UHGV virus genome: UHGV-0171754
DNA from: a virus
DNA: 44,568 nt
Reading direction: 5' to 3' (one strand)
Under the pieces are notes generated by a model. The model made no database searches, was not told the origin of the DNA, and saw nothing but the letters and a program-made list of their open reading frames with translations. How positions within the stretch are numbered: the first letter of the stretch is position 1; each line of letters opens with the position of its first letter. Shown here one piece after another: positions 30,562-39,074 of this stretch. A program made the translations under genes and the position numbers.

Positions 30562-30766
30562 CCGCAGTATGCGCGTCGTGGACGAAATTGTTAAACGCTA
30601 CCAAATTAACCCGAGGGAGAACAAAGTGCGGCGGGTCAGTCGCCCGGAGCAATTGCTCGGCATGGACCTTACCGGCTGGCTTGTAATGACCGCCCGTTGT
30701 CATCTTGTGTGTGACGCTTTTTCTGCCCGTGTTGTTCGTATGAATCTGATCGAGGAGTTGAAATGA
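30542..30766 (+). CDS. Small hypothetical protein (74 aa)
   Basis: ATG (MNILVVDRS); start uncertain (GTG 9 nt upstream also possible). Confidence 0.35.
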   Translation: MNILVVDRSMRVVDEIVKRYQINPRENKVRRVSRPEQLLGMDLTGWLVMTARCHLVCDAFSARVVRMNLIEELK

Positions 30767-31233
30767 AATTACTGATTTGCGATTTGGATGGCGTTATTAA
30801 CGGTTCAAGCGATGCGCGTGCCGACCTGGTGCCTGGGATAAAAACTAAATCCACCTTTTGGGCGAAGTGGCACAAGGCGCACGTCCGCGAAGATCTGAAC
30901 ATGGATATGCTGCCGCTGCTGACCATGTACAAAGAGCAAGGCTTCGAAATCGCGTATCTGACCAACCGGCAGCGGGAATGCTGGGAAACCACCGCCGAAC
31001 AACTGGAAGTATTCCCGACAGGCCGGTTGTTTATGCGCCACATGCTGGACGATACCCCGCCGCCAGAGTTTAAGGCGTGCGCCGTGTTCAAAATGGTCTG
31101 CTATGCGGACGTGTCGGAACTGGTCATCATTGAAGATTGCGAGAAGAACATCGCGGCAATTCGTCGGGCGTGTGGCGATTTGGTCCCGAAAATTTACGCA
31201 ATAAACGTTGCAAAATTCACTTGCAACCAATAG
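30763..31233 (+). CDS. HAD-superfamily phosphatase-like protein (possible nucleotidase)
   Basis: 156 aa; N-terminal LICDLDGVIN resembles the HAD motif I (DxDG). Confidence 0.45.
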   Translation: MKLLICDLDGVINGSSDARADLVPGIKTKSTFWAKWHKAHVREDLNMDMLPLLTMYKEQGFEIAYLTNRQRECWETTAEQLEVFPTGRLFMRHMLDDTPPPEFKACAVFKMVCYADVSELVIIEDCEKNIAAIRRACGDLVPKIYAINVAKFTCNQ

Positions 31234-31296: not shown

Positions 31297-31851
31297 GTGA
31301 AAGCATACGAATACTGCAAAAATGCCGCCACCACTATGGAACAGCGCGGGAAAGAAAACGGCTATGACAACGCAAAAGAAGAACGCAGCGCGAAACAAAT
31401 CGCTGCCGTATTTAACGCGCTTACCGGTCGCGACCTTACCGAGCAAGAAGCCTGGACCTTCCTGATCTGCCTGAAGCTGGTGCGCCAGCACCGTAAGCAC
31501 CAAGAAGATAATATCGTGGACCTGGTGGCGTATGCCGCCCTGCTGGGCGAATCTTACATGACCGTGCATGACGAAATTCAGATCGATACAACGGCAGCGC
31601 AATTTGAAAGCCTCAAAGGGCTGTCCGTGCGTCTTGACGGCGAGATTAATGCGTATAACAGCGCAATTCGCGTTGCAGAAGATACGGTGGCCTCGTTCGG
31701 CAAGACTGTTAAGGCACGCGATTTTGGGGTCGTAGCCCAGGACGTCCAGCCTATGGTCGTGCTCACCGGCGAAGACGGGTCGAAAATCTGCATGACGCAG
31801 GAAGATTTCCGCAACATGGAAAAAACACTGGTGACTGGTGCACTTAAATAA
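31297..31851 (+). CDS. Hypothetical protein (184 aa)
   Basis: GTG start with AAGGG RBS; no confident motif. Confidence 0.45.
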   Translation: MKAYEYCKNAATTMEQRGKENGYDNAKEERSAKQIAAVFNALTGRDLTEQEAWTFLICLKLVRQHRKHQEDNIVDLVAYAALLGESYMTVHDEIQIDTTAAQFESLKGLSVRLDGEINAYNSAIRVAEDTVASFGKTVKARDFGVVAQDVQPMVVLTGEDGSKICMTQEDFRNMEKTLVTGALK

Positions 31852-31893: not shown

Positions 31894-32469
31894 ATGTACG
31901 GCGAATACGAAATATCTGGTAAACAATTCCACATGGCGGCAATGATAGCAAGCATCGAGTTTGACCAGTGGCAATACAAGTCTGACGCGTGCAAGCAAAG
32001 CAGACTCGTCGGTGTGCTTGGCGAAATGTTTGCAGGCATGTACCTTGAGGGTCAGGCGGGTGGGCGTAGTTGTATCCCGCAAGGCTTACTGATGCGTACA
32101 GGCCTGTTTAGCGCCAACACCATTGACCGCGGCGATATTATCATGGTCGGCAAGCGCAAGGTAAAATCCGGTCCCGACTTCCGCGAACATGTGATCGATG
32201 CCGTCTGGACCTACGAGGTTAAGGCCACCAGCGGCATACGTCGAGGACTGGTGGAGGCACGTTGCGCTCGAGAATACCTTACCCGTCGCGTTGCAGGGGT
32301 TATCCTGGTGGGCGTATCGTTCGGGCAACATAGTGCCAGCGGCGTTATTGAGGATATTGCGGAGCCATACGTGATAGTGAACGACTGGCCCCTGGTGGAA
32401 GTGGATGGAAAGGAATATTACGAAAGCCCGCTTGTGCGGCGCAAAATGGACTGGGAAAACTCAAACTAA
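31894..32469 (+). CDS. Hypothetical protein (191 aa), possible PD-(D/E)XK-like nuclease
   Basis: GAGGA RBS; segment GDIIMVGKRKV...VWTYEVKATSG loosely fits a D...ExK pattern; last gene of the rightward operon. Confidence 0.45.
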   Translation: MYGEYEISGKQFHMAAMIASIEFDQWQYKSDACKQSRLVGVLGEMFAGMYLEGQAGGRSCIPQGLLMRTGLFSANTIDRGDIIMVGKRKVKSGPDFREHVIDAVWTYEVKATSGIRRGLVEARCAREYLTRRVAGVILVGVSFGQHSASGVIEDIAEPYVIVNDWPLVEVDGKEYYESPLVRRKMDWENSN

Positions 32470-32473
32470 AAAC

Positions 32474-32491
32474 AGGGGCCACATGGCCCCT
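32474..32491. terminator. Bidirectional terminator between the rightward operon and the tail fiber gene
   Basis: Stem aggggcc/ggcccct with 4 nt loop, A-run upstream, T-rich downstream. Confidence 0.6.
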
Positions 32492-32496
32492 TATCC

Positions 32497-34320
32497 TTAT
32501 TTCTCCGCCAACTTACTTTCCAAAGCCTCAACCTTCGCCGCCAAATGCTGAACAGTCGCGACAAGGTCAAGTAACAGGACGTTTTCATCTAATGCCAGAA
32601 ACTCTTTACCAGTTGCGTCGGCGTACTTGCGAACATACTGCGGGTCGATCTCTTCCAACTGCTGCGCGATAAAACCACGTCTGACTGTCTCCTTTTTGTC
32701 GTAATTATAGACAAAGGAAGAGTATTCCATTGCCATAACGTTATCGAACGCAACTTGAGTGTCGATCCTGGCGATATCATGCTTCAGCGCCCTGTCGGAT
32801 ACCGGGGATTTTGCGAAAATATATCCAACCGACCCAGCGTTGTTGCCGAAGGTAATATCGTATGACTCGGCGTTAAAGGTAGTATTCCGAACTATATCGG
32901 CGTTAGGCTGCAGTCCAGTCGCCAGATCATAGTCAAAGACCTGCGAAATCATAGCGTGAGGGTGTGATGACCCCGCAACGGGGTGAATCAACGCCCCGAA
33001 CGAAATGAAGTTACGCCACCCACCACCCGCCGTGCCCGCGCCACCACCAATAAAACCTACGTGGCCCGCGTACTGGCTGTCCATCCAGGTATTAGGAAGG
33101 GTCGCGTAGGTATTAACAGGCGACGCAGAAATGGACGATGGCCTCAATGCTTTATAAAAAATAAGCCTACCATCATATTTAAAGTCCCACGACGGCGAGT
33201 TCACCGGGTCGAGGACGTTAACGGTCGCCAAACGGGTCCAGGCGTCTACGTTATTACGCCCCTGAAGCTGAATCGACGTTCTGTATTTTTCGGCCCCAGC
33301 AACGGTCACAGATGAGTCGAATCTACCGCCGTATACTTCTGCGCCATTCGCCAGATCTGAAGCGTAATTATTGCGTAAACCCCAAATCCCCACGTCATCA
33401 AGACCGCGCCACACCCACCCTTTAGTCGCAGAGTCAAGAGGGTCGACTGGGTCCGCGCCTACGCGAAGCGGTCCTGACGGCATAAGGTTAGCCCACGACG
33501 CACTTTTGTCCGCAAGCCCGGCGAGGTTGCCGGATTTGGTTAGCAGATTGTCGGGGTTTACGCTTTGCGCCCATTCTTCGGCCTGATCGCGAAATCCCTG
33601 CGCGGCAGTGCTGGCGGCTTGCGCTTCAGCCTTCGCGGCGTTGGCCTCGTCGCGAATAGCGCCGGTGTCAGTCTTGATCTGGTTAGTCTGGTCTTTGATC
33701 GCCTGCGTATCAGCCTTAATCTGATCAGTCTGCGTTTTGATGGTATTAGTGGCATCGCGAATGCCTGCCGTATCTGCCTTAATCTGGTTGGTGGCATCGC
33801 GAATGCCAGCCGTCTCCGTCTTGAAGCCTTCGGCCTCATTGCGAAATCCTTGCGCTGCTGCTTCAGATGCCGCGGCTTGTTGTTGCAGGTTGCGCATTTC
33901 AACGGGGTCAACTTCCTTCAGCAATTGCGACAGGTAGCCCCAGGACATACCCTGCATAACTTGCCCGTTCGGCAGCGTTACCGTTATTTCTTCTTCGTCT
34001 CCGAAGATCGCACGCCAGTTGTTTTCGTCCGCGATCATCAAGCGCAACGCTTTCTGTGCCTGGACGGTTACGCCCATCGTCGCCAGCGACATGGTATCGC
34101 GCTTAACACCATCCCACGCGAGTCCCGTTGCCGTGGGGCCGTCGAACGGCAGCACCAGCGTAAGCGCGGTGTCGCTTTCGACGGACGCGATCGCAACAGT
34201 GTATGGCACTTGTCCTACCACCAGCGTTAAGAAGTCGCCAGCCTTGAACGCGGTAAACGTTGTGCCGACGCCGACAACCGCCTTGCTGTTATTCGTTACG
34301 GATAGAGTACCCGCTGCCAT
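32497..34320 (-). CDS. Tail fiber protein with central tandem repeats and C-terminal intramolecular chaperone-like domain
   Basis: 607 aa; repeated ~10 aa units (GIRDATNQIKADTAGIRDATNTIKTQTDQIKADTQAIKDQTNQIKTDTGAIRDEA); C-terminal SDRALKHDI...YNYDKKETVRRGFIAQQLEEIDPQYV resembles self-cleaving chaperone domains of tail fibers and endosialidases. Confidence 0.75.
   Translation of the reverse strand: MAAGTLSVTNNSKAVVGVGTTFTAFKAGDFLTLVVGQVPYTVAIASVESDTALTLVLPFDGPTATGLAWDGVKRDTMSLATMGVTVQAQKALRLMIADENNWRAIFGDEEEITVTLPNGQVMQGMSWGYLSQLLKEVDPVEMRNLQQQAAASEAAAQGFRNEAEGFKTETAGIRDATNQIKADTAGIRDATNTIKTQTDQIKADTQAIKDQTNQIKTDTGAIRDEANAAKAEAQAASTAAQGFRDQAEEWAQSVNPDNLLTKSGNLAGLADKSASWANLMPSGPLRVGADPVDPLDSATKGWVWRGLDDVGIWGLRNNYASDLANGAEVYGGRFDSSVTVAGAEKYRTSIQLQGRNNVDAWTRLATVNVLDPVNSPSWDFKYDGRLIFYKALRPSSISASPVNTYATLPNTWMDSQYAGHVGFIGGGAGTAGGGWRNFISFGALIHPVAGSSHPHAMISQVFDYDLATGLQPNADIVRNTTFNAESYDITFGNNAGSVGYIFAKSPVSDRALKHDIARIDTQVAFDNVMAMEYSSFVYNYDKKETVRRGFIAQQLEEIDPQYVRKYADATGKEFLALDENVLLLDLVATVQHLAAKVEALESKLAEK
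33615..33870. repeat. Imperfect tandem DNA repeats (about 30-33 bp units) inside the tail fiber gene
   Basis: Units such as ggcatcgcgaatgcc(a/t)gccgt(a/c)tc(t/c)g and ctgatcagtctg / ctggttagtctg recur; encode the peptide repeats. Confidence 0.6.
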
Positions 34321-34403: not shown

Positions 34404-34622
34404 ATGAAAACTTTAATTATGATTTGTGCGGTTCTTCTGTCGGGTTGTGCCAACATGCCGACTAAAGTCTGCGACGCGACATATGTTAATAGCGGCATGG
34501 AATACTCGGTCCCGGTGTTTGGGGTTGCCGACTTTAGTGGACACAAAATGATCAAGGCTGGGTATCCGTTCAACTTCCAGTATGTGTCGGTCGACCACTT
34601 CAAAAGCACAACCTGCAAATAA
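34404..34622 (+). CDS. Small lipoprotein (72 aa), opposite-strand insertion next to the tail fiber gene; candidate superinfection-exclusion protein
   Basis: Signal peptide with lipobox MKTLIMICAVLLSGC; AGGGGGA RBS; own promoter and terminator hairpin. Confidence 0.65.
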   Translation: MKTLIMICAVLLSGCANMPTKVCDATYVNSGMEYSVPVFGVADFSGHKMIKAGYPFNFQYVSVDHFKSTTCK

Positions 34623-34641: not shown

Positions 34642-35316
34642 TCAATCATAATTGGCGGTGTTAATCGCCATAATCGCGTTGCCGTTGTTAGTATATCCCA
34701 CCACATCCCCCGTGGCGTTCCCCGACGACGCTGCCGATATACGCGTTCGCGACCCATCAAATCTGGCCCCCGTGAACGCCGTTACCGATATTACTTGCGG
34801 CTGGCCCTGCACAAAAAACCGGATCAGCGTAGACCCCAATATGCCCGGAGCGACGGCGTAGCTGCCGTTTAGCGTCTGGTCAATGTTAATCCCCCCGTTA
34901 GCGCCTGGCGATCCGACGGTAACTAAATCACTTAGTACGCGACTCTCATTAGTAAGCACTAGCTCCCCCGTCTTATCCCAAATAGCGAAGCCCCACCGCG
35001 GAAGGGTCTGTGGGAATATAGCAAAGATGTAAGCCGTCATCGTGAAGCCCTGCCCGAATGGATTGCTGGCGCTCACCTTCACCACATTACCAACGCGAGA
35101 AGACCCTACGACGGTCGGCTGGGCGGTGTGCGTAGTTTTCACAAACGCTATTGCAGGGTAGTCACCACCCAAATTAATATCGGCAGCCGCCGACTGCGCA
35201 GTGCCGTTAGCCGAAGACCCGACAACCACACGGCGGAATAGACAAAACGGCGTCGATTCAGGCGTGATAAACGGGTTGCCGTTTGGTAAGTCAATCAACG
35301 CGCCGTAATTAGCCAT
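34642..35316 (-). CDS. Hypothetical tail-associated protein (224 aa)
   Basis: Position between the J-like tip protein and the tail fiber; Gly/Ser/Thr/Asn-rich. Confidence 0.5.
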   Translation of the reverse strand: MANYGALIDLPNGNPFITPESTPFCLFRRVVVGSSANGTAQSAAADINLGGDYPAIAFVKTTHTAQPTVVGSSRVGNVVKVSASNPFGQGFTMTAYIFAIFPQTLPRWGFAIWDKTGELVLTNESRVLSDLVTVGSPGANGGINIDQTLNGSYAVAPGILGSTLIRFFVQGQPQVISVTAFTGARFDGSRTRISAASSGNATGDVVGYTNNGNAIMAINTANYD

Positions 35317-35618
35317 TATGCTCGCTCCACAAAAACAATAACGTCACATTCAGATGCGGAGTAAACCCCGCCACCTACCTCACTTGCCGCGGAAACCGTT
35401 ATAGTGTTCCCGCTGGCGGTTATTCTGCGGCCTGGCCCGACCGCGCCTTTATCCAGTGCGACCACGTATCCGACCTTCATCCCCGCCGGTACCGGGAAGG
35501 ACCATGCGCCTGATTTTTGTCCTTCCGCAAGATGAATCCTTCCGATAACCGATACCGGTTTAATCCCATAGTTGTTCGGTCGCCCTTGTGCGTCCCATGT
35601 TGCTATTCCGAAAGCCAT
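35316..35618 (-). CDS. Hypothetical tail-associated protein (100 aa)
   Basis: Start after a terminator; stop overlaps downstream ATG. Confidence 0.45.
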   Translation of the reverse strand: MAFGIATWDAQGRPNNYGIKPVSVIGRIHLAEGQKSGAWSFPVPAGMKVGYVVALDKGAVGPGRRITASGNTITVSAASEVGGGVYSASECDVIVFVERA

Positions 35619-35654: not shown

Positions 35655-38600
35655 CTACCAGCGACCAGTAAGCTCGCCAATTTGCACGCGTAAAACACCG
35701 TTCGCGTCTTTAACGCTGTAGTTGGTGTTGGTCTGCTTTGTACCACCACCGCTTCCAGTCCCCAGGTTGATAAACGTTCCATCTTTCCCTAAGCGCCAGC
35801 CGCGCGTGCTGCCGTCGTAGTTATTCGATTGCAGCGTGTCTGTGATCTGCGCGAAGTTAATGGACGCATTCTTGATGCGGGCGGTGTCGATGTACACCTG
35901 ACCACCGTCAACGATAAACGCGGACGAAAGCGACCCGTTAGATGGGTGCATGATGTAGAACTGGTCCGCTTTGAATGCGATGCGGGATTTAACCGCGCCG
36001 CCTTCCGCCACGACGGAAAGCTGCATACCGGCATCGTAGTAAGTCCCGTTATACGTCACCCCAGCCTTAAGGCTATACGTGGCACTACCACCAGAGTGGT
36101 TAAACGAGGACGTCATCTTCTGCTCTATAGCGGCGGACTGCTGACCGAACTGTGTCGCGACCTGGGTCTTATATTCTGCCAGCGCTCCAGCCACGTCTGC
36201 GGTTGCCGTTTGTACCTGCTGGATGGCGGCTTCCTGTTCCCCGAACTTAGCGGCAACAGTTTGCTGATACTGGGCGAACGCTTGTTCCTGTGTGCTCTGC
36301 GCGGTCTGCAACGTGTGGATTGCCGCTTCAGCATCATCAAGGCGAGTACCGATCAACGTTTCCAGTTGCGCTACCGCCTGGTGGGCATCTGCCGCCACGT
36401 TATACGCCACCGTGATTTCCGCATAAATCCCTTTATACTCGGCGCGGGCGTTAAACAACTGCTGCGCGTCGGTGAGCATAGCCTCGTAAATACCCTGCGG
36501 GATCGTGTTGATTGCTTCCTGGAAGCGTTTACCATCCTCGGAAGTCAAGAACTCGTCATCAAGCCCCTTCATGTACTCGTCAACTTTGTCACTCACCTGC
36601 CCTTCAAACGGGGCCGACCAGTCCGACAGGTTGCCGATTTTATCCGTCACACGGGCGCGCAACTGCTGGTAAATTCCGAACTCCAGCGATGTTTGCGCAT
36701 ACTCCGCCCCTGGATATGGGACGTTGGTAAGGAATTTCCATTCAGTCTCACCGGTCTTGCGCACTTCAAGCTCGGTGTATGAGATATCCGTAGCGGCGTT
36801 GTTGTGGTTCCACTTCCATAGAATCTGGTGTAGGCCCGAAATCGCGTTGGTGATTATTGGTGCGTTAAGCCCACCGAGACGACCTTCCACCGGCGTGATC
36901 GCGGATGATACCCACGGAGATGAAATCTCGCCCATACCGATCGCACGGACGCGTGCCTGGTAGTTACCGGAGAACACGTTAGGAATGTGCGCGCCATTCG
37001 ACGCCGTGCGCGGGATATTCACCCAGTCGTTACCCCACTGGATTTCCATATTCTGTAAGCTGGTGCGCCGCCACTGTATTTCATACACCACGGCGTCCTT
37101 CACCGGAGGGAAAACAATATCCACGTTGGTGATTAGCTGGCCTTGCGATGAAATCTGCGACGGGGTTATGGTCACTGATTCCGGCCCCTTCATTACGCCG
37201 TCAGGCACTTGAGTAAAGATGCCCGGATCAAGGCGCGCGCCATTATCAACGGCATCATATTTGCTATCGTTGTATTCAATCCCGCGCACCGAGAAAGTGC
37301 TGGTAGAGTCGTCATACTCAAGGTCGGTGATGCGGAATTTCTGCAACTGGATATCGTCACCATCAACGCAAAACGGCTGGTCAGGAATAGGGTTGGCGTC
37401 CAGTGCGGTTTTTAACGTTACCTTGTTGCCGTTGACGCTGGCGATCTCGCGAGTCTCAACATTTCCGCTATCGGTGCGTACAAGGAACTTATCGCCAGGA
37501 CGGAACGTGATTTCGCTATCCGTGTTCAGCACGGTACGCGTGCCCGGGTCTGACAACAGTCGACCGCCGCGCGTCTCAAAACCGCCAGAAATGTTTGTAT
37601 CGGCGATCGCGACTACGCTACCCGGAATAAAGAATAACCCTTCCATGCCAACCTTAAAGCTAACTTGCTGGTCAAGCTGGTTGGAAATTAGCGCCCAGTG
37701 CCCGCGGCGTTGCGCTTCAGATTCACGCGTACAGCCGATCGCCGTAATATCAAGACGGTTAATCTTATGGCGGCGTACAAGTTCGACGCGCTGCCCCGTT
37801 GCGATGGCATCTTCATAGTGGTTCTTCGGGTTGCCGTATGCTACCGCAAATGTGGAATAGCGAGTTTTCTGGCTGCCAGATGCGTAGTCGAATCGACCAT
37901 CAATTACCGAGGCGTTGGTGATAGTGTGCGACACTGCTGCGACCGGTTGGTCACTGACAATATTCAACATCTGGTTGCCCCACCAGGTCATTCCAGCGAA
38001 GATGGCGGCTAAATCCTTAAGCACGGTCCAGGCATCCGTCTGTGACTGAATGTACATATCATTCTTAAAGCGGATTTCTCGACCACCGTTGCCGTCGCTG
38101 ACCAACTGATCGCAGCGCTGCGCAATCTGGTAGAGCGCGTATCGGTTTAGCATTTGCGGTTTGATACGCCGACCGAGGCCGAAGCGCTCAGTAATACAAA
38201 TATCGTACCAGTGCCACGCAGGGTTATCAGTCCATGCGCGTTTAAACGTGCCGTCCCAGTCCCCGGAATAGGTATGATTGATCGGGTCGTAGTTGTTAGG
38301 TATTAGAACTTTGCGGCCTTTGCACTTGATGGACACGCGCGGGATGTTCTGGAACGCTTTGGCGTCGAACTCCACAAACAACAGCGCGGTTAGCGGGTAA
38401 CGCAGGCGGGCGTCAATAATCTCAGTGATGGACTGCACCCGGATATCATTAACCACTTTCGCCGATGTGGGGTCTGCCGTTATGCGGTGCACCTCCACGC
38501 GCCAGCCGGTGTTAACGTTCGGAGGTAATTCGATGCGGTGGTCGCGCTCATATAGCGACATTGTTTTACCAACGGCGGCGAATCTGAACTCACGCGGGTC

Positions 38601-39074
38601 GGCGTTATCCGTATACACAACTATCTTATAGTCGATGCGCCCGCCCACCAGGTCGCCATTATCTTCGTTAGTGTACAGGGCTGGAATACCGATGCGAATG
38701 CGAACAGCGTCCAGACTGGTATCGTTAATCTGGCGCACCCACGGCGTGCCGTTTTCCAGTTTTACGCCGACAGATTGCTCACTTTCCACCGCCGAAAATC
38801 CGTGGATCACATCCTGGTGCTGTGTGCCGGGGCGGAACTCCACCCGCGCTCCAGGGAAGTTTTCGGACAGGTCAGCATTCTGGATCGGCGTTCCATCCAG
38901 ATATACACGCTGCCGCAATTCGCTGGCGCTGGTAATACTTTCGAATTCACCCTCGCCCAGTGCAAGCAAGATGCGGATTTTAGCCAGCGAATGCAGGCTA
39001 TCGGGCGTCTCCTGTGGGGTGTGCTGTTTGCCGCCTCCGCCTTTATGCCCTGTGACGTCGTAGATAATCGTCAT
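35655..39074 (-). CDS. Tail tip / host-specificity protein (lambda gpJ-like central fiber)
   Basis: 1139 aa; N-terminus GGGGKQHTPQETPDSLHSLAKIRILLALGEGEFE resembles the gpJ N-terminus; position after the I-like gene. Confidence 0.8.
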   Translation of the reverse strand: MTIIYDVTGHKGGGGKQHTPQETPDSLHSLAKIRILLALGEGEFESITSASELRQRVYLDGTPIQNADLSENFPGARVEFRPGTQHQDVIHGFSAVESEQSVGVKLENGTPWVRQINDTSLDAVRIRIGIPALYTNEDNGDLVGGRIDYKIVVYTDNADPREFRFAAVGKTMSLYERDHRIELPPNVNTGWRVEVHRITADPTSAKVVNDIRVQSITEIIDARLRYPLTALLFVEFDAKAFQNIPRVSIKCKGRKVLIPNNYDPINHTYSGDWDGTFKRAWTDNPAWHWYDICITERFGLGRRIKPQMLNRYALYQIAQRCDQLVSDGNGGREIRFKNDMYIQSQTDAWTVLKDLAAIFAGMTWWGNQMLNIVSDQPVAAVSHTITNASVIDGRFDYASGSQKTRYSTFAVAYGNPKNHYEDAIATGQRVELVRRHKINRLDITAIGCTRESEAQRRGHWALISNQLDQQVSFKVGMEGLFFIPGSVVAIADTNISGGFETRGGRLLSDPGTRTVLNTDSEITFRPGDKFLVRTDSGNVETREIASVNGNKVTLKTALDANPIPDQPFCVDGDDIQLQKFRITDLEYDDSTSTFSVRGIEYNDSKYDAVDNGARLDPGIFTQVPDGVMKGPESVTITPSQISSQGQLITNVDIVFPPVKDAVVYEIQWRRTSLQNMEIQWGNDWVNIPRTASNGAHIPNVFSGNYQARVRAIGMGEISSPWVSSAITPVEGRLGGLNAPIITNAISGLHQILWKWNHNNAATDISYTELEVRKTGETEWKFLTNVPYPGAEYAQTSLEFGIYQQLRARVTDKIGNLSDWSAPFEGQVSDKVDEYMKGLDDEFLTSEDGKRFQEAINTIPQGIYEAMLTDAQQLFNARAEYKGIYAEITVAYNVAADAHQAVAQLETLIGTRLDDAEAAIHTLQTAQSTQEQAFAQYQQTVAAKFGEQEAAIQQVQTATADVAGALAEYKTQVATQFGQQSAAIEQKMTSSFNHSGGSATYSLKAGVTYNGTYYDAGMQLSVVAEGGAVKSRIAFKADQFYIMHPSNGSLSSAFIVDGGQVYIDTARIKNASINFAQITDTLQSNNYDGSTRGWRLGKDGTFINLGTGSGGGTKQTNTNYSVKDANGVLRVQIGELTGRW

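What the first reader, a model, noticed from the sequence alone, without database searches (positions are those of the whole stretch)
32497..34320. Tail fiber with variable tandem repeats and a putative self-cleaving C-terminal chaperone domain
The central part of the fiber is built from imperfect tandem repeats (DNA 33615-33870), a substrate for length variation. The C-terminal ~120 aa look like an intramolecular chaperone that is cut off after trimerisation. The receptor-binding region would then be the segment between the repeats and the cleavage site.
Basis: partly seen in the sequence, partly recalled or inferred. Interest (0 to 1): 0.35.

Follow-up and report, generated by a model that had tools for sequence, protein, structure and literature searches.

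The report
Dhillonvirus lateral tail fiber, ordinary architecture

Summary
The ORF at 32497-34320 (-) is real and encodes 607 aa. It is 91-93% identical at DNA level to annotated tail fiber genes of Dhillonvirus phages.

- **Repeats:** they exist as about 14 imperfect heptads (consensus T-x-x-I-K/R-x-D, aa 156-253) with a stronger 14-aa/42-nt super-period. Periodicity is far above codon-shuffle controls, although Tandem Repeats Finder misses them. The region is modelled as one long helix (aa 139-253), so it is read as a coiled-coil shaft.
- **Length variation:** among 120 homologue clusters the shaft spacer is 127, 120, 113, 106 or 43 aa, always differing by whole heptads. Phage Pubbukkers has lost 252 nt by recombination between two flanking 31-nt repeats. 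Variation is occasional: 79 of 93 scorable clusters keep 127 aa.
- **C-terminus:** it is a Peptidase_S74 intramolecular chaperone of exactly 100 aa (508-607), not about 120. The Ser508/Lys513 dyad is conserved and the fold matches the MyRF ICA and endosialidase chaperone structures.
- **Receptor-binding tip:** aa ~294-507 is the variable module, and its first half is homologous to the distal part of phage DT57C LtfA.

This architecture is already published for Dhillonvirus fibers (Humolli 2025). Cleavage and receptor identity remain inferred. Verdict: already known, low interest.

The parts
32497..34320 (-). Lateral tail fiber gene, 607 aa plus stop
   Evidence: ORF listed. Matches phrog_1980 'tail fiber protein' at E=9.7e-126. 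91-93% nt identity over 100% of its length to tail fiber genes of Salmonella phage Kenya-K19 and Escherichia phage B2, among 145 phage records, mostly Escherichia phages, several of them named Dhillonvirus. Syntenic with the 'lateral tail fiber protein' bas16_0028 of phage GeorgBuechner.
34328..34332 (-). Ribosome-binding site GAGGA, 8 nt upstream of the ATG
   Evidence: Read directly from the sequence.
33907..34320 (-). N-terminal conserved domain (aa 1-138), inferred virion-attachment anchor
   Evidence: Nearly all positions are invariant across 33 diverse alleles. aa 1-73 match PDB 23gd_B 'Distal tail protein gp20' at E=1.7e-4. The AlphaFold model here has low confidence, pLDDT 26-50. The anchor role is inferred from conservation and from Maffei 2021.
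33562..33906 (-). Shaft: one continuous predicted alpha-helix, aa 139-253 (about 17 nm if straight), inferred trimeric coiled coil
   Evidence: The AlphaFold2 model has helix H139-253, with pLDDT 85-97 over aa ~160-250. Position 1 of each heptad is T or A and position 4 is I, F, A or W. There are weak sequence matches to the T7 gp17 fiber and to the Lpp coiled coil.
33562..33855 (-). Imperfect heptad array, 14 units of 7 aa (21 nt) with a 14-aa (42-nt) super-period, aa 156-253
   Evidence: Protein self-identity z=7.7 at lag 7 and 9.5 at lag 14. DNA self-identity z=7.7 at lag 42.
33828..33858 (-). Proximal copy of the 31-nt flanking direct repeat D2 (codes AAQGFRNEAE, aa 155-165)
   Evidence: the repeat finder family D2, 87% identity, 252 nt spacing. 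Gene coordinates given.
33576..33606 (-). Distal copy of the 31-nt flanking direct repeat D2 (codes AAQGFRDQAE, aa 239-249). Recombination with the proximal copy removes 12 heptads, as in phage Pubbukkers.
   Evidence: The Pubbukkers protein P0019 reads ...AAQGFRDQAEEWAKS..., giving a 43-aa spacer against 127 aa here.
33442..33561 (-). Conserved junction (aa 254-293, VNPDNLLTKSGNLAGLADKSASWANL...), where module exchange occurs
   Evidence: Many phage records stop aligning at gene nt 816, 842 or 872. The same motif aligns to DT57C LtfA 480-582. P0020-P0024 carry a different N-terminus joined to the same C-terminal module just upstream of this motif.
32800..33441 (-). Variable distal domain (aa ~294-507), inferred receptor-binding tip, mostly beta strands, with a Gly-rich motif GGGAGTAGGGWRNFISFG
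   Evidence: This is the part that varies between alleles across Dhillonvirus. Only 12 representative clusters match the fragment aa 255-607 at E<=1e-30. An HMM built from this domain hits DT57C LtfA-like P0238 at aa 778-890, E=2.7e-13. The AlphaFold2 beta-rich model has pLDDT 77-94 over aa ~315-385 and lower, variable confidence beyond.
32797..32799 (-). Codon of Ser508, predicted nucleophile; predicted scissile bond Val507-Ser508
   Evidence: Aligns with the Ser of DT57C LtfA. Nearly invariant in alignment A1 (S254 of the fragment). An S-x4-K motif is present in most of the 120 homologues. The T5 pb1 precedent is the Thr1263-Ser1264 bond (PMC4690869).
32782..32784 (-). Codon of Lys513, predicted general base of the Ser-Lys dyad
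   Evidence: Invariant in A1 (K259 of the fragment). It sits five residues after the Ser, as Lys1269 does relative to Ser1264 in T5 pb1.
32500..32799 (-). Intramolecular chaperone domain (Peptidase_S74), aa 508-607, ending in a long helix (aa 579-606)
   Evidence: Pfam PF13884 at E=7.5e-12. DT57C LtfA 954-1071 aligned. Model pLDDT is 82-97. Foldseek matches 7dc3 MyRF ICA (prob 1.00, TMt 0.60-0.64) and 3gw6 'Intramolecular Chaperone' (prob 0.97-0.99).
32474..32491 (.). GC-rich palindromic hairpin AGGGGCCACATGGCCCCT between the convergent fiber gene and the 191-aa ORF; terminator-like on both strands
   Evidence: This is a pattern match only, and the total count of terminator-like sites in the region is not above shuffles.

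Best explanation
The gene encodes the lateral (side) tail fiber of a Dhillonvirus siphophage of E. coli/Salmonella. It is a compact relative of the T5/DT57C L-shaped tail fibers.

**Proposed mechanism**
- Three chains associate.
- The strictly conserved N-terminal domain (aa 1-138) docks the fiber on the tail (inferred).
- aa 139-253 form a long alpha-helical coiled-coil shaft built from about 14 T-x-x-I-K-x-D heptads. The helix is predicted; the trimer is inferred.
- After a conserved junction motif (NLAGLADKSASWANL), aa ~294-507 form the beta-rich distal tip. It probably binds a surface glycan, most likely O-antigen, so the phage can cross that layer before the central J-fiber module engages its outer-membrane protein receptor. 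This step is inferred from BASEL work on the genus.
- The last 100 aa (508-607) are a Peptidase_S74 intramolecular chaperone. It nucleates trimer folding of the tip and then cuts itself off at Val507|Ser508 using the Ser508/Lys513 dyad. It should therefore be absent from virions. This is inferred from family membership and was not tested.

**Evolution**
- The heptad DNA repeats occasionally recombine out of register. They always add or remove whole heptads, which keeps the coiled-coil register.
- The tip plus chaperone is exchanged as a cassette at the junction motif.
For: **Identity and context**
- Searches identify the gene as a phage tail fiber (phrog_1980) with its closest relatives in Dhillonvirus phages; it sits downstream of the gpJ homologue, as in phage GeorgBuechner, where it is annotated as the lateral tail fiber.
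- No separate fiber-assembly gene follows on the same strand. The next gene is convergent.

**Shaft**
- Heptad periodicity is z=7.7-9.5.
- One predicted helix spans aa 139-253 with pLDDT up to 97.

**Length variation in whole heptads**
- Spacers are 127, 120, 113, 106 and 43 aa.
- The Pubbukkers deletion maps to the 31-nt D2 repeats.

**Chaperone**
- PF13884 scores 45.8 bits against a cutoff of 22.
- Ser508 and Lys513 align with DT57C LtfA.
- In alignment A1 Asp and Lys are invariant and Ser is >=90% conserved.
- An S-x4-K motif is present in most of the 120 alleles.
- Fold matches are to the MyRF ICA domain and the endoNF chaperone, and to many S74 phage fibers in BFVD, including DT57C LtfA.
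- The T5 pb1 mechanism precedent is in PMC4690869.

**Tip**
- The mosaic break lies at gene nt 816-872.
- Profile homology to LtfA 778-890 has E=2.7e-13.

**Literature**
Against: - Nothing contradicts the explanation, but several steps are untested.
- No trimer modelling was available, so trimerisation is inferred.
- Autoproteolysis is inferred from conserved residues only. I did not identify the upstream Arg/Asp 'folding sensor' residues described for T5 pb1.
- The monomer model of the tip gave no convincing PDB fold match. T5 pb1 was not among the listed matches, so 'T5-like tip' rests on sequence-profile homology to DT57C LtfA over only the first half of the domain.
- The receptor is unknown.
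- The N-terminal domain model has low confidence.
Confidence: 0.85

Rival explanations
1. The S74 domain is retained. It folds the trimer but is not cleaved off, or it stays non-covalently bound, so the C-terminus is part of the mature fiber tip.
For: Cleavage was not tested here. The interface between chaperone and tip can be extensive in this family, as with the T5 pb1 'tentacles' (PMC4690869). The only Dhillonvirus proteomics paper found used cell-free lysate and gives no peptide-level map in its text.
Against: The Ser508-x4-Lys513 dyad is strictly conserved in the allele group and across distant alleles. That conservation is hard to explain without catalysis. In every characterised member with an intact dyad (endoNF/K1F, T5 pb1) the domain is released.
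Confidence: 0.07
2. The repeat tract is a fast-switching contingency locus. Frequent slippage would generate fiber-length variants within a phage population as an adaptive strategy.
For: Length variants differing by 1, 2, 3 and 12 heptads exist in nature. Direct repeats of 17 nt (lag 42) and 31 nt (lag 252, 87% identity) are present.
Against: The copies are only 64-74% identical at DNA level and TRF does not score them. 79 of 93 scorable homologue clusters share the same 127-aa spacer, across alleles that differ widely elsewhere. The 120-aa variants also differ in sequence across the region, indicating old events. The pattern fits rare unequal recombination filtered by the coiled-coil register.
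Confidence: 0.05
3. The protein is the central tail tip protein, as many GenBank records annotate it ('putative tail tip protein'), rather than a lateral fiber.
For: GenBank annotations of phage B2, Lzu_P1/P3, Pubbukkers and ZCEC10.
Against: A separate 1139-aa lambda-J-like tail tip protein is encoded at 35655-39074, followed by its own small receptor-module genes and a Cor-like exclusion gene. The curated BASEL annotation calls the orthologue the lateral tail fiber. The domain order matches the T5/DT57C L-shaped fibers.
Confidence: 0.03

Closest known systems
Dhillonvirus lateral tail fibers (e.g. GeorgBuechner Bas16 gp28; RuthEpting Bas85 Gp29; JLBYU60 fiber)
   Same: Same gene position, between the gpJ receptor module with its Cor-like gene and a convergent 191-aa ORF. 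The N-terminal ~290 aa are 77-96% identical across the diverse alleles aligned. The published architecture is the same: coiled coil, T5-like tip and IMC.
   Different: The distal tip allele differs. GeorgBuechner is 53% identical overall because the C-terminal half is a different cassette with an SGREYK-type chaperone of 116 aa. The allele here is shared at 85-94% identity with Kenya-K19, B2, HK1, AV129 and McMelon.
L-shaped tail fibers of T5-like phages (T5 pb1; DT57C LtfA, PDB 8hqz chain d)
   Same: Three collinear homologous segments match LtfA: the junction motif (LtfA 480-582), the first half of the distal domain (LtfA 778-890, E=2.7e-13) and the S74 chaperone (LtfA 954-1071). The Ser-x4-Lys dyad is the same as Ser1264/Lys1269 of pb1.
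   Different: It is much shorter: 607 aa against 1076-1396. The N-terminal anchor is different. The shaft is a simple heptad coiled coil. No LtfB-like branch gene is present. The chaperone is 100 aa against 133 in pb1. The monomer model did not retrieve the pb1 'bullet' fold.
Endosialidase C-terminal intramolecular chaperone domain (endoNF/K1F, PDB 3gw6; Pfam PF13884 Peptidase_S74)
   Same: Pfam family membership, a fold match at prob 0.97-0.99, the catalytic Ser/Lys motif, and a C-terminal helix that forms the trimeric coiled coil of the chaperone.
   Different: It is attached to a fiber tip, not to a sialidase tailspike. No glycosidase domain was detected.
MyRF ICA domain (PDB 7dc3)
   Same: This is the best structural match to aa ~500-607 (prob 1.00, TMt 0.60-0.64, 21-22% identity). 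The profile also hits it at E=1.1e-8.
   Different: It is a eukaryotic membrane-bound transcription factor. The relationship is at domain level only.

Membership tests
Peptidase_S74 / intramolecular chaperone auto-processing domain (PF13884) | Sequence match to the family model above the curated threshold | tested here: met
   45.8 bits against a gathering score of 22, E=7.5e-12, aa 508-563 covering model positions 1-57 of 58.
Peptidase_S74 / intramolecular chaperone auto-processing domain (PF13884) | Catalytic Ser at the domain start with Lys five residues downstream | tested here: met
   Ser508 and Lys513 in VSDRALKHD align with the S...K of DT57C LtfA. Asp and Lys are invariant and Ser is >=90% conserved in 42 sequences. 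The motif is present in most of the 120 alleles. The spacing equals Ser1264/Lys1269 of T5 pb1.
Peptidase_S74 / intramolecular chaperone auto-processing domain (PF13884) | Characteristic fold ending in a long C-terminal helix | tested here: met
   Model pLDDT is 82-97 over the domain, with a helix at aa 579-606. Foldseek matches 7dc3 (prob 1.00, TMt 0.60-0.64) and 3gw6 (prob 0.97-0.99).
Peptidase_S74 / intramolecular chaperone auto-processing domain (PF13884) | Autoproteolytic release after trimer folding; absence from the mature particle | not testable with these tools
   This needs virion MS or expression of wild type against S508A. The one Dhillonvirus proteomics paper found gives no peptide map in its text.
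Dhillonvirus lateral tail fiber (phrog_1980) | Full-length homology and conserved N-terminal domain | tested here: met
   phrog_1980 at E=9.7e-126 over aa 1-606. The N-terminal 138 aa are almost invariant in 33 alleles. 145 phage records share the 5' half.
Dhillonvirus lateral tail fiber (phrog_1980) | Synteny: downstream of the gpJ homologue, its small receptor-module genes and a divergent Cor-like gene | tested here: met
   The window order is J (35655-39074), phrog_557, phrog_425, Cor-like (+ strand), fiber, then a convergent ORF. The order is identical in GeorgBuechner and Pubbukkers.
T5-like L-shaped tail fiber (pb1 / LtfA) | Homology of the distal receptor-binding domain | tested here: inconclusive
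   The profile of aa ~294-507 hits LtfA-like P0238 at 778-890, E=2.7e-13, but this covers only the first ~105 of 207 profile positions. The single-sequence match was insignificant (domain 3). Foldseek on PDB gave no significant hit for this domain. BFVD gives DT57C LtfA at E=4e-14, but the S74 domain may drive that match.
T5-like L-shaped tail fiber (pb1 / LtfA) | Binding of O-antigen or another polysaccharide as a dispensable primary receptor | not testable with these tools
   Inferred from BASEL experiments on other Dhillonvirus isolates. No carbohydrate-binding Pfam domain was detected here.
Trimeric alpha-helical coiled-coil shaft | Heptad periodicity with small or hydrophobic residues at positions a and d, and helical conformation | tested here: met
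   Lag-7 z=7.7. Position 1 is T or A and position 4 is I, F, A or W in all 14 heptads. One predicted helix spans aa 139-253.
Trimeric alpha-helical coiled-coil shaft | Trimeric oligomeric state | not testable with these tools
   Only single-chain prediction was available.

The most novel reading that the evidence does not exclude
Heptad number acts as an adjustable ruler: fiber length is tuned by gaining or losing whole heptads to match the thickness of the host's O-antigen or capsule layer. The natural 12-heptad deletion in Pubbukkers would then be an adaptive short-fiber form rather than a neutral accident.
Probability: 0.12. Interest if true: 0.35.

Novelty: already known. Interest (0 to 1): 0.1.

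Why it matters
It matters little beyond annotation. The result corrects the common GenBank label 'tail tip protein' to lateral tail fiber. It also fixes three practical coordinates:

- the predicted maturation site, Val507|Ser508;
- the cassette boundary for tip swapping, aa ~272-293 around the NLAGLADKSASWANL motif;
- the fact that the coiled-coil shaft tolerates loss of 1-12 heptads in nature.

The last point is useful for anyone engineering host range in small siphophages.

Tried and rejected
- **Tandem Repeats Finder.** It found nothing, because the repeats are too diverged. I replaced it with autocorrelation against codon shuffles.
- **PDB profile search with alignment A1.** N-terminal overhangs of other proteins contaminated it, producing the Depolymerase 7vyv and RipA hits. 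I used only its S74 hits and rebuilt a trimmed domain HMM locally.
- **Foldseek of the C-terminal model against PDB.** Only the chaperone matched. The T4 gp34, DnaN and fHbp hits had prob <=0.25 and were rejected. The tip fold therefore remains unassigned, probably because a monomer model of an intertwined trimer is unreliable.
- **AlphaFold of aa 1-300.** The N-terminal domain was uninformative (pLDDT 26-50) because the alignment is too shallow, so I ran no fold search on it.
- **Proteomics literature.** The only Dhillonvirus MS study used lysate and reports no per-peptide coverage of the fiber in its text. It cannot decide whether cleavage occurs.
- **MAFFT pairwise alignment of the Pubbukkers deletion.** It misplaced the gap. 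I read the junction directly from the sequences instead.
- **Weak Pfam hits.** The hits to HAUS1, Fez1, Syntaxin and others are generic coiled-coil noise, all below threshold.
- **Antisense ORF 33565-34230 (+), 221 aa.** It has no support and I treated it as a by-product of the repeat composition.
Full report
**1. What is there**

The window carries a 607-codon ORF at 32497-34320 on the minus strand. It has a GAGGA ribosome-binding site 8 nt upstream of the ATG. A GC-rich palindromic hairpin at 32474-32491 separates it from a convergent 191-aa ORF.

The gene is 91-93% identical at DNA level, over its full length, to tail fiber genes of Salmonella phage Kenya-K19, Escherichia phage B2 and others. 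In all, 145 phage records match, almost all Escherichia phages, and several are named Dhillonvirus. An identical protein already exists in public assemblies (P0001). It matches phrog_1980 'tail fiber protein' at E=9.7e-126.

The gene order is:
- lambda-J-like tip protein (35655-39074);
- two small proteins (phrog_557, phrog_425);
- a divergently transcribed Cor-like lipoprotein gene;
- this fiber gene;
- convergent replication-side genes.

This is the same order as in the curated BASEL phage GeorgBuechner, where the orthologue is annotated 'lateral tail fiber protein'.

**2. The repeats**

From residue 156 the protein reads as 14 consecutive heptads. The core consensus is T-x-x-I-(K/R)-x-(D/E/Q). 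AQGFR(N/D)(E/Q)/AE(G/E)... heptads flank it at both ends.

| Measure | Lag | z against shuffles |
|---|---|---|
| Protein self-identity | 7 aa | 7.7 |
| Protein self-identity | 14 aa | 9.5 |
| Protein self-identity | 21 aa | 6.5 |
| DNA self-identity (codon shuffles) | 21 nt | 3.8 |
| DNA self-identity (codon shuffles) | 42 nt | 7.7 |

For the DNA measures at lags 21 and 42, none of 2000 shuffles reached the observed value. The repeat finder reports four 42-nt copies at 64-74% identity, plus a pair of 31-nt repeats (87% identical, 252 nt apart) that bracket the array. Tandem Repeats Finder reports nothing, so the repeats are real but old and diverged. The longest exact repeat is 17 nt at lag 42.

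Position 1 of each heptad is T or A and position 4 is I, F, A or W, which is an a/d pattern. AlphaFold2 models aa 139-253 as one uninterrupted helix with pLDDT up to 97. I therefore read the repeats as the heptads of a coiled-coil shaft about 17 nm long. The trimeric state is inferred, not tested.

**3. Is repeat number variable?**

Yes, but only occasionally. I measured the distance between two conserved anchors (GYLSQLLKEV and NLAGLADKSA) in 120 homologue clusters. One search's stricter anchors gave 127 aa in 79 clusters, 120 in 8, 113 in 2, 106 in 3 and 43 in 1, with 27 unscored. One search's looser anchors did not add usable lengths: they scored a few more proteins at 393, 394, 233, 89, 39 and 6 aa, which are anchor mis-hits and were set aside.

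Every usable length differs from the others by a multiple of 7 aa. For four independent alternative lengths this has a chance probability of about (1/7)^4, or 4e-4.

- P0110 lacks exactly 'NQIKADTAGIRDAT' relative to the window protein. This is the outcome expected from unequal exchange between the two AGIRDAT copies.
- Phage Pubbukkers lacks 84 aa (252 nt). Its junction lies inside the 31-nt flanking repeat.
- The same distal-tip allele as in the window occurs with 127-, 120- and 43-aa spacers (P0001-P0019). Shaft length is therefore not tightly coupled to tip type.

It reflects rare recombination constrained by coiled-coil register, not a rapidly switching tract.

**4. The C-terminal domain**

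Pfam assigns aa 508-563 to Peptidase_S74 'Chaperone of endosialidase' (45.8 bits against a cutoff of 22). The closest solved relative by sequence is the L-shaped tail fiber LtfA of phage DT57C (8hqz_d, E=7e-14). Its residues 954-1071 align to aa 503-606, with Ser508 and Lys513 opposite its Ser and Lys.

In T5 pb1 the equivalent Ser1264 is the scissile residue. The Thr1263-Ser1264 bond is cut, Lys1269 activates the Ser, and an S1264A mutant stays uncleaved (PMC4690869).

- In a 42-sequence alignment of distant relatives Asp and Lys are invariant and Ser is at least 90% conserved.
- An S-x4-K motif opens the C-terminal domain in most of the 120 Dhillonvirus alleles, although the domains belong to several sequence types of 100-126 aa.
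- The AlphaFold2 model of aa 255-607 has mean pLDDT 79, and 82-97 in the chaperone.
- Its chaperone part matches the MyRF ICA domain (7dc3, prob 1.00, TMt 0.60-0.64) and the endoNF 'Intramolecular Chaperone' (3gw6, prob 0.97-0.99).
- In BFVD it matches many S74-bearing phage fibers, including DT57C LtfA and S16-type Gp37.

The domain is exactly 100 aa (508-607), not about 120. The predicted mature protein is aa 1-507. No separate fiber-assembly gene follows on the same strand, which fits a built-in chaperone. Cleavage itself could not be tested.

**5. The receptor-binding part**

Many phage records align only to the first 816-872 nt of the gene (aa ~272-291) and then diverge. The N-terminal ~290 aa are 77-96% identical across alleles, while the rest is unalignable between allele types. 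[quoted passage not shown]

The break coincides with a conserved motif, NLAGLADKSASWANL, which also aligns to DT57C LtfA 480-582.

A tip-plus-chaperone cassette 92% identical to the window's occurs behind a completely different N-terminus in an E. coli O70:H38 protein (P0020-P0024). The module therefore moves between phage lineages.

A search of 1.84 billion representatives with aa 255-607 found only 12 clusters at E<=1e-30. A profile of the distal domain hits the LtfA-like protein P0238 at residues 778-890 (E=2.7e-13 at PDB-size search space). This covers only the first half of the domain. The monomer model found no significant PDB fold for it.

Its ligand is unknown. O-antigen is the best inference from experiments on other Dhillonvirus isolates (PMC11990801).

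**6. Comparison with what is known**

The exact architecture has been published.

- Humolli et al. [quoted passage not shown] The window's protein is thus one more allele of a described fiber type. The only details I did not find stated in those texts are the strict whole-heptad indel pattern and the flanking-repeat deletion in Pubbukkers. These are minor.

**7. Verdict**

| Item | Assessment |
|---|---|
| Observation | Confirmed |
| Interpretation | Supported, with small corrections: 100-aa chaperone, and repeats that are coiled-coil heptads with rare variation |
| Novelty | Already known |
| Interest | Low, about 0.1 |

The most novel reading still open is that heptad number is an adaptive length ruler. 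It is weakened by the finding that one tip allele occurs with three shaft lengths and that 85% of clusters share one length.

Noticed in passing
window 34404-34622 (+): A 72-aa lipoprotein-like ORF (MKTLIMICAVLLSGC...) is transcribed divergently from the fiber gene. It matches phrog_1119 'Cor superinfection exclusion protein' at E=2.7e-27. From general knowledge, Cor proteins block FhuA, so the phage's terminal receptor may be FhuA. I did not test this.
   Followed up: partly
window 35316-35618 (-) and 34642-35316 (-): Two small genes lie directly downstream of the J-like tip gene: phrog_557 'outer membrane protein' (100 aa) and phrog_425 'membrane associated protein' (224 aa). [quoted passage not shown] A 2025 paper models the same proteins as extra tail-tip components rather than membrane proteins.
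   Followed up: partly
P0020-P0024 (E. coli O70:H38 and metagenome contigs), against window aa 255-607: The same tip-plus-chaperone cassette (92% identity) is fused to an unrelated N-terminal half in 548-aa proteins, one of them from an E. coli genome. This implies exchange between a Dhillonvirus and another phage or prophage lineage at the AAQGFRDQAEEWAQSVNPDNLL junction.
   Followed up: partly
homologues P0040, P0046, P0081, P0074, P0076, P0082, P0120: Some Dhillonvirus fiber alleles with the same N-terminal half carry no S74 domain. Some have PF25670 instead and others have no Pfam domain. Not all alleles rely on the built-in chaperone, and these may need a separate assembly factor.
   Followed up: no
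window 34102-34320 (-), aa 1-73: The extreme N-terminus resembles the N-terminus of PDB 23gd_B 'Distal tail protein gp20' (E=1.7e-4) and phrog_9922 'minor tail protein'. This hints at a shared docking fold between fiber anchors and tail-tip proteins. The AlphaFold model here was too poor to pursue it.
   Followed up: partly
window 32474-32491: A perfect 7-bp GC-rich palindrome, AGGGGCCA CATG TGGCCCCT, sits in the 27-nt gap between the convergent fiber gene and the 191-aa ORF (31894-32469, phrog_10558, unknown function). It is terminator-like on both strands.
   Followed up: no
window 30763-31233 (+) and 31297-31851 (+): On the other strand next to the fiber locus are a polynucleotide-kinase-like protein (phrog_415, E=3e-35) and a 184-aa protein of phrog_9871 with a weaker match to families labelled 'phosphofructokinase'. 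The function of the second is unclear.
   Followed up: no
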